A DNA stretch of 64,000 nucleotides, from the NCBI GenBank assembly GCA_045631425.1, contig JAZQUR010000105.1, positions 13,917 to 77,916 of the forward strand, read 5' to 3'. A program made the position numbers and the translations under genes. The DNA is from Treponemataceae bacterium. GTDB lineage: Bacteria; Spirochaetota; Spirochaetia; Treponematales; Treponemataceae. Position 1 is the first letter of the stretch. The number at the start of each line of letters is the position of its first letter. The notes beneath the pieces were generated by a model. The model saw nothing but the letters and a program-made list of their open reading frames with translations. It did not search any database and had not been told where the DNA came from. Positions 19,327-24,789 of this stretch are shown one piece after another.

Positions 19327-19369
19327 AAAGGTGGTCAAGATGTCATTATATAAATGTTTAGGAAAAAGT

Positions 19370-19570
19370 GGTACTCTGATTTGACGGAATCAGAGAGTCG
19401 GCGGAAGGTTCTAACGTCCCGTGAAGAAGCCTTTACAAAAGTAATCACTTACTTCGAGGTCAAGATTAATCAAAACCGACCGTCGTATGACATAAATGCA
19501 GCAAGGGGACATTTCCCCTTGACTGCGAATAGGAGTACGGCTAACCACAACCAGACATTTACTCCTGATT
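19370..19570 (+). ncRNA. Candidate IS110 bridge RNA (target-binding and donor-binding loops)
   Basis: AACGTCCC (19413-19420) is the reverse complement of the right target half. GGTCAAG (19458-19464) equals the left target half. TATGACAT (19486-19493) is the reverse complement (7/8) of the left IS terminus. ATAGGAG (19529-19535) equals the right IS terminus. Closing stems: GTCGG/CCGAC, a 12-bp hairpin at 19498-19526, and AGGAGTA/TACTCCT. The exact 5' and 3' ends are unknown. Confidence 0.6.
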
Positions 19571-19595
19571 CCATTTTATCATAAAGAGGAAACAA

Positions 19596-20676
19596 ATGGA
19601 ACAGAAACGATTTGTAGGAATTGACCTAGGAAAAAGAACTTTTGAAATAAAGTTCATAACAAGCAATGGAAGTGTGACAGGCACAAATGGAAAAACTTGT
19701 CCATCGGGAAGAAAAGAATTATATAAAAAAACTTCTTCCTACAGATAGAATAGCAATAGAAGTTTGTTCATTAGGAATGGTAATGGCAAAAGAAATAATA
19801 CAACAAGTTGGAGCTGAAGTAGTTTTATTAAATCCAAGCCAAATTGCTTTAATTTATCGCTCTGTAAAAAAGAATGATAAAGAAGATGCCTTAAAACTTG
19901 CAAGACTTGTTCAAAAGTTCACAAATGAAGAATTACCAAAAGTTGAATTGCCAACGGAACATGAAGAAAACTTACGACAAATTTTAACAGAATTAAGACA
20001 GTTAAAAAATGATAGAACAAAAGAAATAAATAGAGTTCATGCAATTTTTGTTGAATGTGGTATTACAGAAATAAAAAAGAGTAATTTAGCTACACACAAA
20101 AATCGAAGTGAATGTATAAGAATACTTAAAGGTATTTTCTTATCACAAGCAGAAAGAAGTTTAAGAAAACTTGAACTGATAGAAACTCAAATATTAGAAG
20201 TAGAAGAACTTTTGGATAAAGAAATTGATGGAGATAAAAGTATAGAAACTTTAATTACAGTCCCAGGAGTAGGAAAACAACTTGCGTCTTCTTTTGTTGC
20301 ATTTTTGGGAGATGGTTCTAGATATCCGAATGTATCTTCAATTGGGGCAGCAACAGGGCTTGTTCCACGACTTGATATGTCTGGTACAAGTTTAAGATTA
20401 GGGCATATAACAAAAAAAGGAAATTCAAATTTGAGATCATTACTTATTCTTGCGGCATGGTCACATGTAAGAGCAAAAAATGGAGGTGCTCTTAAAGAGA
20501 AATATTTATATATGACTATAGCTCAAAGCAAAAGTAAAAAAGTTGCTATTGTTGCGATAGCAAGAAAAATAGCAGAGTTAATGTATTCTTTATTAAAAAA
20601 TAATACACAATACGAAAAAAGAGCTCCTGTATCTATTAAAAAATTAGCAACAGAAGCTCTTGTAGTAGCTAGTTAA
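19596..20676 (+). pseudogene. IS110-family DEDD recombinase/transposase, frame broken by one extra A in an A7 run
   Basis: Frame 0 reads MEQKRFVGIDLGKRTFEI...KELYKKTSSYR*. The +1 frame continues ...LLPTDRIAIEVCS, KNDKEDA, VPGVGKQLA, DMSGTS, ITKKGNSNLR. Removing one A from 19725-19731 gives a 359-aa ORF. Confidence 0.85.
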
Positions 20677-20700
20677 AACATGGAATCAGGAGTCATGGTA

Positions 20701-20706
20701 TTGACA
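20701..20706 (+). promoter_or_regulatory. Outward-facing perfect -35 hexamer (TTGACA) in the IS right end
   Basis: It lies 11 nt from the IS end. After circularisation it would sit 17 nt from CATTAT (19344-19349) in the left end. Confidence 0.4.
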
Positions 20707-20717
20707 AATATCATAGG

Positions 20718-20782
20718 AGGGACGTTTCACTTAAACCCTTGACTCACCTTTGTTTCTGGTCTTCAAACATTGTAGAACCTAA
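20718..20782 (+). repeat. 73-bp hairpin repeat, copy A (right part; the 10-bp left part is at 19330-19339, split by the IS)
   Basis: GGACGTTTCACTTAAACCCTTGACTCACCTTTGTTTC is near-identical to 23425-23461 (36/37 over these 37 nt). ATAAA flanks the composite on both sides (19325-19329 and 20783-20787). The element supplies the TAG stop of the truncated KilA-N ORF. Confidence 0.75.
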
Positions 20783-21489
20783 ATAAAAACAGCATTCAAG
20801 TTTTCCATATTGCTTAGACAAATCAACTGATTAATTGTTGCGTAATCTCTGATGTTTCCTTTTAAGTCTGGATTTTCATCTCGCCATTCTCTAGCAGTTT
20901 TTCCAAACATCGCCACGTTTAACATGTCAGCTTCATCAGCATAGACGAATGATTTTTGTGCTGGAGTTAGTTCTTGCGGAATTAGATTTTGTTTGATTGC
21001 GTCTGTGTGGATTCTGTAATTGATTTTTGCAAGTTCCCTTTTTGCTGACCAACCAAGGAGTTTTTGTTCTTCTTCTTTTAGGCGTTGGAATTCTTCAATT
21101 AGGTATAGTTTAAAAGGTACACTGATAGCAGAACCGAATTCGAAAGCAATGTCTTTATGTGCGTATGTTCCACCATAACGACCTTTTTTGACAACAATTC
21201 CAATTGCGTTTGTTTTTTCTATCCATTCACTACAACTTAAAACAAAAGATGGTAATCCTGCTTGCATTTTAAAGTGGTCAAATTCGACCACTTTAAAATC
21301 TGGATTATGAATCATTTCCCAAGTTCCAAGGAATTCTATTGTATAACGATTTCTCAGCCAATTTTTAATAACATCAGCAGCTCTAGATTCATTTTCTTTA
21401 GCACCAGCCATATCTGTAAGACTAATATAGTCTTTCTCTTCAAAATTGATAATTGTAACTTCGGTATTTTGAACATTAATCTTTGCCAT
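20779..21489 (-). CDS. KilA-N domain protein, 3'-truncated by insertion of the 73-bp repeat
   Basis: KilA-N-type N-terminal pattern (YISLTDMA, TIEFLGTWE, GRYGGTYAHKDIAFEF). The ORF ends ...NAVFI* with the stop inside the repeat. Only 12 nt downstream of recQ. Confidence 0.75.
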   Translation of the reverse strand: MAKINVQNTEVTIINFEEKDYISLTDMAGAKENESRAADVIKNWLRNRYTIEFLGTWEMIHNPDFKVVEFDHFKMQAGLPSFVLSCSEWIEKTNAIGIVVKKGRYGGTYAHKDIAFEFGSAISVPFKLYLIEEFQRLKEEEQKLLGWSAKRELAKINYRIHTDAIKQNLIPQELTPAQKSFVYADEADMLNVAMFGKTAREWRDENPDLKGNIRDYATINQLICLSNMENLNAVFI

Positions 21490-23349: not shown

Positions 23350-23414
23350 ATAAAATTATATATCTTTTTTTTGCGAAATTTAAATTTAACCTTAGATTGT
23401 AGGCACAAAATACA

Positions 23415-23487
23415 GTTGGTCAAGGGACGTTTCACTTAAACCCTTGACTCAACTTTGTTTCGATTCTATTTAAATTATAGAATCGAA
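23415..23487 (+). repeat. 73-bp hairpin repeat, copy B (uninterrupted; carries the predicted IS target GGTCAAG|GGACGTT)
   Basis: 8-bp stem GTCAAGGG (23419-23426) / CCCTTGAC (23441-23448) with a 14-nt loop. The distal part (ATTATAGAATCGAAATA) overlaps the last 6 codons of the HD-domain gene. Confidence 0.75.
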
Positions 23488-24789
23488 ATATGATATATAG
23501 TTGATTTTGTACTTACTGTTGGGGAACAAATATTCGTGTAATTCCACAAAATAGTCGTCAGTCATACTAGCGATAAAATCTGCCACAATTCTGTTTGGCT
23601 CAGATTTCTCATAAGGATTTTCATCAGATTTGCCATCACCGGAATTGTAGTAGAAAGTGTTTTTTTTCACAAAATCAATGTGATGTTTAAATATTACAGA
23701 ATCTCGGTTTTCTTTGATTAAGTCGTCCAAAAGTTTGTAGTAAACTTCAGAAAACATTGGCTTGATTTTATTATCTACATCATCTTGGACTTTTTCAGTT
23801 TTATAGATTTTTTCATAGTTCTCTTTTTTGGAGATTTTCAACGCGTTGTAGGATTCCGCACTTAATTGCAAATAATTTTTCCCATAACTATTATTGATAA
23901 TATCTACTGTAAGATTATTAATTATGGCTGCATTATTTGTGCCAATTTCAGAAGATGAAAAATCATTTTCACGTTCAAGGATTTTTGCAGTTATGGCGTC
24001 CTGTCTATCTTTTCCAAGATAAGCAATCATATCACAAATGCGAACAACACATGCTTCCAAAGTGATTGGAACAAGCTTTTTGATTGCGCTATTTCCCTCT
24101 TTGTCGCAGGAAATCATTTGAGCATCAAAACGAGCAAAACCTTCTTCTGAGGATTTTGGAGCTTCGGCTGGTTTATATTCTTTTAGCTCAAACTCACCGT
24201 TATGACAAATTATGCCATCTAAAGTTTGCAAAGAAAGATTACGCTTAAAAATTGTATCTAAAACTCTTGCACTGTGAATATTATGATTAAAGTAAACGGC
24301 AATTTCCTTTTGCATGATTTCAGATAAAAAACTTTCCCCAGCGTGACCAAAAGGTGTATGCCCAATATCGTGGCCAAGAGCAATAGCCTCTATCAAATCA
24401 GTGTTTAATCCCAAAACTGCGCCGATGGAACGTGCAATCCGAGAAACAAGCTGAACATGCAAGGCTCTACGAGTTATATCATCATTTTTATAAAAAGAAA
24501 AAACCTGTGTTTTATCGGCATAGCGATTATAAACTGGAAGATGCAAGATTTTCTCTGTATCCCGAACAAAAGCCGGTCGCCAAAGATTTTCCTTATCCCG
24601 TGAATTATCACGTCGCAAAACATCTTGATTTTGAGTTTTGTAAGGACTTTCGAGTTTTTTCCGTTTATCTTCTTCGATTTTTTCTTGGATTTCAGGCAAA
24701 AGTTTTTTATACATAAGTTGATTATAGCATATCCACATAAAAAAAATATAGCCAAAAGTTTTGTTGCTATCTCCTAATAATTTCATCAT
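23470..24789 (-). CDS. HD-domain dGTP triphosphohydrolase-like protein
   Basis: FVRDTEKILH, KTQVF and ALGHDIGHTPFGHAGE motifs. The start is uncertain: ATG 24714 (MYKKLL) is an alternative to 24789. Confidence 0.8.
   Translation of the reverse strand: MMKLLGDSNKTFGYIFFMWICYNQLMYKKLLPEIQEKIEEDKRKKLESPYKTQNQDVLRRDNSRDKENLWRPAFVRDTEKILHLPVYNRYADKTQVFSFYKNDDITRRALHVQLVSRIARSIGAVLGLNTDLIEAIALGHDIGHTPFGHAGESFLSEIMQKEIAVYFNHNIHSARVLDTIFKRNLSLQTLDGIICHNGEFELKEYKPAEAPKSSEEGFARFDAQMISCDKEGNSAIKKLVPITLEACVVRICDMIAYLGKDRQDAITAKILERENDFSSSEIGTNNAAIINNLTVDIINNSYGKNYLQLSAESYNALKISKKENYEKIYKTEKVQDDVDNKIKPMFSEVYYKLLDDLIKENRDSVIFKHHIDFVKKNTFYYNSGDGKSDENPYEKSEPNRIVADFIASMTDDYFVELHEYLFPNSKYKINYISYFDSII

What the first reader, a model, noticed from the sequence alone, without database searches (positions are those of the whole stretch)
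19340..20717. IS110-family element whose left end reads as a two-loop bridge RNA matching its own target and its own termini
The boundaries are fixed by an uninterrupted copy of the host repeat at 23415-23487, which reads TGGTCAAG|GGACGTTTCAC. The 256-nt non-coding left end contains two modules with the same geometry.

Module 1 (target-binding):
- The 5' arm AACGTCCC (19413-19420) is the reverse complement of the right target half GGGACGTT.
- The 3' arm GGTCAAG (19458-19464) is identical to the left target half, including the AG.
- The module is closed by GTCGG/CCGAC (19397-19401 and 19476-19480).

Module 2 (donor-binding):
- The 5' arm TATGACAT (19486-19493) is the reverse complement (7/8) of the left IS terminus ATGTCATT.
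- The 3' arm ATAGGAG (19529-19535) is identical to the right IS terminus, including the AG.
- The two arms are separated by a 12-bp hairpin (19498-19526).

AG occurs at both junctions, which suggests it is the core dinucleotide. This is the target-binding-loop plus donor-binding-loop logic reported for IS110 bridge RNAs. The sequence therefore predicts a programmable recombinase, its guide RNA and its natural target all within one window.
Basis: partly seen in the sequence, partly recalled or inferred. Interest (0 to 1): 0.75.

Follow-up and report, generated by a model that had tools for sequence, protein, structure and literature searches.

The report
IS110 insertion sequence with bridge RNA
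This is a 1.38-kb IS110-family mobile element from a Treponema-like genome whose upstream non-coding end encodes a two-loop bridge RNA matching its own insertion site and its own ends. That is a well-supported but already known kind of RNA-guided recombinase system, and this copy has a broken recombinase gene.

Summary

The interpretation also holds. The recombinase is an IS110-family RNA-guided transposase (NCBIfam, 213 bits).
- In 29 related guide pairs from Treponema metagenomes, the two target-loop arms change together with the flanking DNA (0 of 20,000 permutations).
- The RNA stems show compensatory changes at 26 of 44 pairs.
- A covariance model built here hits the window once (19369-19541) and also hits the left end of the catalogued ISLin1.

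Corrections:
- The element spans 19340-20719.
- The recombinase gene is frameshifted (A7; eight relatives have A6).
- The arm order is the reverse of IS621. [quoted passage not shown] This is the IS1111/IS5075 order, and it equals IS621 geometry read on the opposite strand with a canonical CT core.

Durrant et al. 2024 already list ISLin1 as having a left-end bridge RNA. This is therefore a new member of a known kind. The unusual polarity is the only possibly new point.

The parts
19340..20719 (+). IS110-family insertion sequence (1,380 bp including one copy of the AG core), 99.2-99.5% identical to five metagenomic copies
   Evidence: Filled site compared with empty site; blastn against L001, L002, L039, L040 and L062.
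19333..19339 (+). Left target half plus core (GGTCA+AG), identical to the target-loop 3' arm
20719..20726 (+). Second core base plus right target half (G+GGACGTT), complementary to the target-loop 5' arm
23418..23431 (+). Uninterrupted natural target GGTCA-AG-GGACGTT. It lies in the 5' arm of the hairpin GTCAAGGG (23419-23426) / CCCTTGAC (23441-23448) of an intact host repeat (about 23409-23490).
19369..19541 (+). Bridge RNA core (173 nt): 5' stem-loop, target-binding loop, donor-binding loop. The transcript probably starts near 19356.
   Evidence: Covariance-model hit of 194.8 bits, the only one in the window; 94.4% of cells paired and 26 of 44 pairs with compensatory change.
19374..19395 (+). 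5' stem-loop CUCUGAUU-UGACGG-AAUCAGAG
   Evidence: helix 1: 6 of 8 pairs with a change on both sides.
19403..19410 (+). Target-loop closing stem, 5' strand (GGAAGGUU), pairing with 19474-19481 (AACCGACC).
   Evidence: helix 2. Both options have some compensatory support and they exclude each other.
19413..19420 (+). Target-loop 5' guide AACGUCCC. [quoted passage not shown] It corresponds to the IS621 'left target guide' once the site is read on the opposite strand.
19422..19456 (+). Target-loop distal stem-loop with a bulged A at 19451
   Evidence: helices 3 and 4, 7 pairs with a change on both sides.
19458..19466 (+). Target-loop 3' guide GGUCAAG (left flank plus AG core), followed by the handshake dinucleotide AU, which equals the first two bases of the element
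   Evidence: In L024 the handshake bases and the element's first bases both read TT.
19482..19487 (+). Donor-loop closing stem GUCGUA, pairing with UACGGC at 19536-19541
   Evidence: helix 5.
19487..19493 (+). Donor-loop 5' guide AUGACAU, complementary to the element's first 7 bases ATGTCAT (19340-19346)
   Evidence: In relatives 5-7 of 8 positions pair.
19497..19527 (+). Donor-loop distal hairpin (12 pairs plus a U.G pair, bulged A at 19522)
   Evidence: helix 6: 10 of 12 pairs with a change on both sides.
19529..19535 (+). Donor-loop 3' guide AUAGGAG, identical to the right terminus plus core (20713-20719)
   Evidence: The guide is ATAGGAG in all 38 aligned RNAs except L102 (ATAAGAG) and the interrupted L016 and L025; nearly every right end reads ..CATAGG.
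19596..20676 (+). Recombinase gene, frameshifted at the A7 run 19725-19731. Deleting one A gives 359 aa with D10, E55, D94, D97 and S262.
20701..20706 (+). TTGACA -35 box in the right end. When the ends are abutted it lies 17 nt upstream of CATTAT (19344-19349), giving a junction promoter.
   Evidence: No promoter-like site lies upstream of the RNA in the integrated copy.
19561..19574 (+). ACTCCTGATTCCAT, a perfect 14-nt complement of 20680-20693 (ATGGAATCAGGAGT). The two segments bracket the recombinase ORF.
   Evidence: the pairing covaries between clades.

Best explanation
**What it is.** An IS110-family insertion sequence of the ISLin1-like spirochaete clade. It sits in one orientation in the 5' stem arm of a host intergenic hairpin repeat, at GGTCA-AG-GGACGTT.

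**The RNA.** Its 256-nt left end encodes a bridge RNA made of a 5' stem-loop, a target-binding loop and a donor-binding loop.
[quoted passage not shown] The next two bases, AU, match the element's first two bases (handshake).
- Donor loop: AUGACAU pairs with the left terminus and AUAGGAG pairs with the right terminus plus core.
- Read on the strand opposite the recombinase gene, this is exactly the IS621 geometry with a CT core: left guide 5', right guide plus handshake 3'. Relative to IS621, the RNA and recombinase genes are therefore inverted with respect to the recombination sites. The resulting arm order is the one seen in IS1111-type elements.

**Expression.** It is probably driven by a promoter formed only when the ends are joined in a circle (TTGACA in the right end, 17 nt, CATTAT in the left end).

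**What is shown.** Boundaries, family assignment, RNA structure conservation, arm-flank covariation, and the frameshift.

**What is inferred.** Transcription, RNA-protein complex formation, and recombination chemistry, all by homology to IS621 and ISCro4. This copy is non-autonomous unless the extra A is a sequencing error. Its RNA is identical to that of intact copies.
For: **Family**
- Pfam PF01548 and PF02371.
- NCBIfam NF033542 'IS110 family RNA-guided transposase', 213 bits against a cut-off of 140.
- PDB sequence hits to the ISCro4 and IS621 transposases.
- DEDD residues and the SG serine are conserved.

**Boundaries and core**
-.

**Guides**
- Exact matches, with 0 of 200,000 shuffles reproducing them.
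- Six insertions carrying the identical RNA at the same position and in the same orientation; five are in the same repeat family.
- 29 distinct guide pairs. The 3' arm matches its own left flank at 129 of 174 non-core positions, against 55.8 +/- 7.3 when flanks are permuted. The summed best 5'-arm runs are 187 against 90.5 +/- 7.1. Both are 0 of 20,000 permutations.
- Examples: L003 AGCGUGCC pairs with GGCACGCT; L007 GGGCGAAAG equals its flank; L101 pairs at 10 of 10; L017 compared with L009 differs as GCCCGAT compared with GCCCGC.

**Structure**
- Fold z = -5.55.
- 94.4% of cells paired against about 40% in the slid controls. 26 of 44 pairs carry compensatory change. Conserved G.U pairs fit only the + strand.
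- The model also hits the ISLin1 left end at 66.6 bits.

**Polarity**
- IS621 checked on L038. IS5075 checked on L144.
- The invariant core base is A, which is the invariant T of CT on the other strand (Hiraizumi 2024).

**Non-coding left end**
- The 76-aa ORF there is not conserved in relatives.
Against: - There are no expression, binding or activity data.
- Rfam 15 has no matching family, and the published bridge-RNA models were not available.
- The structural alignment was fitted to the model, which inflates the paired percentages.
- The target loop's closing stem is ambiguous.
- The donor 5' arm is imperfect in many relatives (5-7 of 8).
- The register of the target 5' arm relative to the core shifts by 0 to 2 nt between specificity groups.
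- Some copies sit in flanks with 1-3 mismatches to their guides (L001, L016, L063, L088, L090).
- The recombinase ORF in the window is broken.
Confidence: 0.9

Rival explanations
1. The arm matches are chance complementarity within an ordinary structured 5' leader of the recombinase mRNA and have no guide function.
For: Each single 7-mer match has a 1.4-2.3% chance in a shuffled left end. There are no expression data.
Against: All four matches together occur in 0 of 200,000 shuffles. The arms covary with the flanks across 29 guide pairs, with 0 of 20,000 permutations reaching the observed score. The geometry matches IS621 on the opposite strand, down to the handshake dinucleotide.
Confidence: 0.01
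2. The left-end segments act at the DNA level, as internal copies of the ends and target that the recombinase binds, or as fossils of earlier insertions. They are not RNA guides.
For: Sequence alone cannot tell DNA pairing from RNA pairing for the arms. The family has a 7-bp subterminal inverted repeat (ATGATAT/ATATCAT) and a 14-nt internal inverted repeat.
Against: The stems between the arms keep pairing through compensatory changes and conserved G.U pairs that work on one strand only. The arms lie in the unpaired internal loops, as in IS621. Homologous systems have been shown by experiment to use RNA (PMC11208160, PMC11187229).
Confidence: 0.03
3. The element belongs with the IS1111 group, as a seekRNA element whose non-coding region has moved upstream, rather than with the IS110 group.
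For: The arm order is the IS1111 order, with the top-strand complement 5'. It has a 7-bp subterminal inverted repeat. BLASTP to IS4321 gives 1e-27 against 8e-23 to IS621. Siddiquee et al. note rare IS1111 members with an upstream non-coding region.
Against: The non-coding region is upstream. The closest named relative, ISLin1, scores better to IS621 (1e-25) than to IS4321 (1e-12). Durrant et al. place ISLin1 in the IS110 group with a left-end RNA. The two simple internal loops resemble IS621, not the multi-loop reported for many IS1111 RNAs.
Confidence: 0.15
4. The A7 run is a programmed slippage site that still yields full-length recombinase, rather than a defect.
For: Homopolymeric A runs can support transcriptional slippage in IS elements (my own knowledge, not checked here).
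Against: All eight close relatives examined have A6 and an in-frame 359-aa ORF. Seven A's is short for efficient slippage.
Confidence: 0.04

Closest known systems
IS621 bridge RNA system (E. coli; Durrant et al. 2024 PMC11208160; Hiraizumi et al. 2024 PMC11208158)
   Same: - DEDD plus serine recombinase.
- RNA encoded in the left end upstream of the recombinase gene.
- 5' stem-loop, then target loop, then donor loop.
- 8-9-nt 5' guide and 7-nt 3' guide followed by handshake bases.
- 2-nt core whose T (here the A on the sense strand) is invariant.
- Target is a repeated extragenic hairpin.
- The promoter is split across the joined ends.
   Different: - About 24% protein identity, and no hit with the RNA model built here.
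- The core reads AG, not CT, on the recombinase sense strand.
- The arm order is reversed relative to the gene (searches compared).
- There is no linker between the two loops.
- The donor 3' guide is contiguous here.
ISLin1 (Leptospira interrogans; ISfinder IS110 family)
   Same: - Closest named element, 34% identity at E = 3e-73.
- Same right terminus, CATAGGAG.
- Same left-end RNA family, 66.6 bits.
- Already listed by Durrant et al. as IS110 group with a left-end bridge RNA.
   Different: - Different genus, different targets, and only 34% identity.
- The guides of the one copy examined match its flanks imperfectly.
IS1111-type seekRNA elements (ISEc11, IS5075/IS4321; Siddiquee et al. 2024 PMC11187229)
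   Same: - The order of the two target matches is the same: the top-strand complement is 5' and the bottom-strand match is 3'.
- Subterminal inverted repeats are present.
   Different: - In those elements the non-coding region is downstream of the recombinase gene.
- Their inverted repeats are longer.
- About 25-27% protein identity.
CazIS110-1 (Caloranaerobacter azorensis; bioRxiv 10.1101/2025.10.25.684509)
   Same: It is reported to transfer only the top strand. The junction bases in this family follow that prediction.
   Different: It is described with the IS621 arm order. Relatedness was not tested.

Membership tests
IS110 family (DEDD RNA-guided transposases) | N-terminal RuvC-like DEDD domain and C-terminal Tnp domain with the SG serine | tested here: met
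   PF01548 and PF02371. NF033542 at 213 bits against a cut-off of 140. D10, E55, D94/D97 and S262 (the D-x-x-D alignment is ambiguous by 3 residues).
IS110 family (DEDD RNA-guided transposases) | Precise, orientation-specific insertion with no duplication beyond a shared 2-nt core | tested here: met
   Filled and empty sites differ by exactly the element plus one AG. Six copies are at the same position and in the same orientation.
Bridge RNA / seekRNA | Structured non-coding RNA in the long non-coding end, with guide segments in internal loops | tested here: met
Bridge RNA / seekRNA | Guides covary with the target flanks and match the element's termini | tested here: met
   The donor 3' guide and the right terminus are almost invariant, so they match but cannot covary.
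Bridge RNA / seekRNA | The RNA is transcribed, binds the recombinase and is required for recombination | not testable with these tools
   There are no transcriptome or biochemical data. The junction promoter TTGACA-N17-CATTAT is inferred from sequence.
IS110 group, IS621-type bridge RNA | [quoted passage not shown] | tested here: not met
   Reversed here. IS621 was verified on L038.
IS110 group, IS621-type bridge RNA | Long non-coding region upstream of the recombinase gene (left end) | tested here: met
   The left end is 256 nt and the right end 43 nt.
IS1111 group | Long non-coding region downstream of the recombinase gene | tested here: not met
   Only 43 nt lie between the stop codon and the right terminus.
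IS1111 group | Subterminal inverted repeats of 7-17 bp | tested here: inconclusive
   Relatives have the 7-bp repeat ATGATAT/ATATCAT five bases in from each end. The window copy matches at 6 of 7.
Rfam families | A match to a curated RNA family | tested here: not met
   Nothing better than E = 2.3 among 4,227 models. No bridge-RNA family matched.

The most novel reading that the evidence does not exclude
The ISLin1/Treponema clade represents a third arrangement of RNA-guided IS110-family elements. The bridge RNA is encoded upstream of the recombinase, as in IS621. However, the whole RNA-plus-recombinase cassette is inverted relative to the recombination sites, so the CT core lies on the antisense strand and the arm order is IS1111-like.

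In addition, the natural junctions of this family record transfer of the CT strand only: where donor and target cores differ, each junction keeps the base predicted by top-strand exchange.
Probability: 0.3. Interest if true: 0.45.

Novelty: new member of a known kind. Interest (0 to 1): 0.3.

Why it matters
The window holds a complete natural example in 4 kb: recombinase, guide RNA, occupied target and an intact empty target. It comes from a lineage (gut and rumen Treponema) that has not been studied for bridge recombinases.

The family supplies dozens of naturally reprogrammed guide-target pairs. It also has a polarity opposite to IS621, which could help define which features of bridge RNAs are fixed and which are free.

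For annotation, it shows that the 256-nt 'non-coding' left end and its 76-aa ORF should be called as an RNA gene.

It does not change what is known about how these systems work.

Tried and rejected
- **Rfam search of the region:** only chance-level hits.
- **Left-end ORF (76 aa, 19354-19584) as a protein:** rejected, because relatives have at most 8-34 aa open in that region (only the 92%-identical L003 keeps 75 aa).
- **Antisense transcription of the left end:** rejected. The reverse-complement RNA would pair with the 5' halves of each DNA strand, which fits no known geometry. The conserved G.U pairs also exist only on the + strand.
- **Promoter for the RNA in the integrated copy:** none found.
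- **Second copy of the element or the RNA in the window:** none.
- **Donor hairpin's 9-nt identity to the host repeat stem (CCCTTGACT):** treated as chance, with about 0.14 expected. It does not covary in L003.
- **Using IS4321 locus L143 to check IS1111 polarity:** that copy is cut by IS26, so IS5075 locus L144 was used instead.
- **Deciding IS110 versus IS1111 by pairwise BLAST:** inconclusive.
- **Literature on ISLin1:** nothing useful.

Full report
**1. What is in the sequence**

The string GGTCAAGGGACGTTTCAC occurs once uninterrupted, at 23418-23435. At the finding it is split as GGTCAAG | ATGTCATT ... CATAGGAG | GGACGTTTCAC. The insertion is therefore 1,380 bp with AG at both junctions: 19340-20719, or equivalently 19338-20717.

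The target lies in the 5' arm of a hairpin (GTCAAGGG-N14-CCCTTGAC) in a host repeat. The window holds one intact copy and one interrupted copy of that repeat.

The 256-nt left end folds much better than shuffles (z = -5.55). Each arm match alone has a 1.4-2.3% chance. All four together occurred in 0 of 200,000 shuffles.

**2. The protein**

Two ORFs (19596-19748 and 19687-20676) are separated by a +1 frameshift in an A7 run at 19725-19731. Removing one A gives a 359-aa protein.
- It scores 213 bits on NCBIfam NF033542, 'IS110 family RNA-guided transposase'.
- It carries PF01548 and PF02371.
- It matches the solved ISCro4 and IS621 transposases.
- It keeps D10, E55, D94/D97 and S262.

Hundreds of 358-360-aa relatives exist. 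Five copies that are 99.2-99.5% identical in DNA, and two copies at about 89%, all have A6 (a further partial copy, L041, also has A6). The window copy is therefore a frameshift mutant or carries a homopolymer error. Its left-end RNA is identical to that of the intact copies.

**3. Relatives and the covariation test**

Genome and metagenome scans and contig look-ups gave about 140 loci, mostly gut and rumen Treponema assemblies.
- Six insertions with the window's exact RNA sit at the same position and in the same orientation with different upstream DNA. Five are in the same repeat family. One (L001) has two mismatches in the right flank.
- Relatives with different arms sit in different flanks that match them:
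  - L003: AGCGUGCC with GGCACGCT, and AGUCAAG with AGTCAAG.
  - L007: AGAGUGUU with AACACTCT, and GGGCGAAAG with GGGCGAAAG.
  - L017 compared with L009: GCCCGAT compared with GCCCGC.
  - L095, L098 and L101: 9-10 contiguous pairs.
- Over 29 distinct guide pairs, the 3' arm matches its own left flank at 129 of 174 non-core positions, against 55.8 +/- 7.3 when flanks are permuted. The summed best 5'-arm runs are 187 against 90.5 +/- 7.1. Both are 0 of 20,000 permutations.

The permutation ignores relatedness between sequences, but the margin is very large.

**4. RNA structure**

RNAalifold on 27 sequences recovered the donor hairpin, both closing stems and part of the 5' stem-loop, with 14 compensatory pairs.

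A covariance model was built from 13 sequences with a hand-checked structure.
- It finds one hit in the window (19369-19541, + strand, 194.8 bits).
- It hits every relative searched down to about 44% protein identity and the left end of ISLin1 from Leptospira at 66.6 bits.
- It does not hit IS621, IS5075 or relatives at 25-30% identity.

On the 38-sequence alignment, 94.4% of cells pair against 37-46% when the partners are slid. 26 of 44 pairs have changes on both sides, and 0 of 500 shuffles reach the observed score. That alignment was fitted to the model, so these numbers lean towards the structure.

Conserved U.G and G.U pairs exist only on the + strand. The 76-aa ORF in the left end is not conserved in relatives.

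The target loop's closing stem is ambiguous.

**5. Geometry compared with known systems**

I checked IS621 directly on an E. coli locus.
- Its 5' arms (AUCGGGCCU, ACAGUAUC) have the sense of the left flank and of the right end, plus CT.
- Its 3' arms are antisense to the right flank and to the left end.
- This agrees with the papers.

Here the order is the reverse. Reading target and donor on the opposite strand turns AG into CT and gives exactly the IS621 scheme:
- left guide AACGUCC+C;
- right guide GGUCA+AG;
- then AU, which pairs with the last two bases of the flipped left-donor arm. This is a handshake guide as defined by Hiraizumi et al..

In L024 both the handshake bases and the element's first two bases are TT. 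Across the family the first core base (A, the T of CT) is invariant and the second varies, as reported for IS621.

Siddiquee et al. reported that IS1111-type seekRNAs have the top-strand complement 5' of the bottom-strand match, the reverse of the IS110 type. I confirmed this on IS5075, with AAAACGGAAA followed by UAUUUUC.

The Treponema/ISLin1 clade therefore combines an upstream RNA (IS110 layout) with the IS1111-type arm order and a 7-bp subterminal inverted repeat. Pairwise BLAST does not settle which group it is closer to. Durrant et al. list ISLin1 as IS110 group with a left-end bridge RNA.

**6. Expression**

The right end carries a perfect TTGACA at 20701-20706. When the ends are abutted it lies 17 nt from CATTAT at 19344-19349, a 10-of-12 promoter that exists only in the circular or joined form. 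No promoter-like site precedes the RNA in the integrated copy. This mirrors IS621 but is inferred from sequence.

**7. Verdict**

The thing is a bridge-RNA-bearing IS110-family element, a kind described in 2024 and already predicted for its nearest named relative. It is a new member of a known kind.

The reversed polarity in a left-end-encoded RNA, the junction pattern that fits single-strand transfer, and the pairing that brackets the ORF are modest points that may be new.

Noticed in passing
window 19561-19574 and 20680-20693: A perfect 14-nt complement (ACTCCTGATTCCAT / ATGGAATCAGGAGT) brackets the recombinase ORF, from just upstream of the ribosome-binding site to just after the stop codon. 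The pairing is kept by different sequences in other clades (for example CTCCAGTCCTT / AAGGACTGGAG) and tolerates G.U pairs, which suggests an RNA-level 5'-3' interaction of unknown role.
   Followed up: partly
related loci L004, L007, L018, L042-L061, L064, L073 (right junctions): Where donor and target differ at the second core base, the left junction always keeps the donor base (G) and the right junction keeps the target base (A or C). About 25 insertions show this. It fits transfer of the CT strand only, as claimed for CazIS110-1, and does not fit a 2-nt heteroduplex segregating 50:50.
   Followed up: partly
related loci, target-loop 5' arm (window 19413-19420): The register of the 5' arm relative to the core differs between specificity groups by 0, +1 (the window group) or +2 nt (L015). 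The 3' arm register is fixed. This is unexplained.
   Followed up: partly
window 19516-19524, compared with 20736-20744 and 23441-23449: The 3' half of the donor-loop hairpin (CCCTTGACT) is identical to the 3' stem arm of the host target repeat. About 0.14 such matches are expected by chance, and there is no clear covariation in L003.
   Followed up: partly
L038 1478-1570 (E. coli IS621 locus): The first ~72 bases of the IS621 left end, from the terminus to ATCGGGCCT, are directly duplicated. The repeat boundary falls at the element's own left-target-guide sequence ATCGGGCCT, as if IS621 had inserted into the guide-encoding DNA of another copy.
   Followed up: no
L016 and L025, left end: Two relatives carry an insertion of about 35 nt (GCGGCAGTAGCAGGTGCGTGCTGCCACACAC..) that interrupts the donor-loop 3' guide ATAGGAG. 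These are probably dead RNAs.
   Followed up: no
window 20720-20785 and 23425-23490: Beyond the target hairpin, the host repeat carries a second hairpin. It is a perfect 12-bp stem at 23458-23487 in the intact copy and is degenerate in the interrupted copy. Neither has a T-run, so it is not a standard intrinsic terminator.
   Followed up: no
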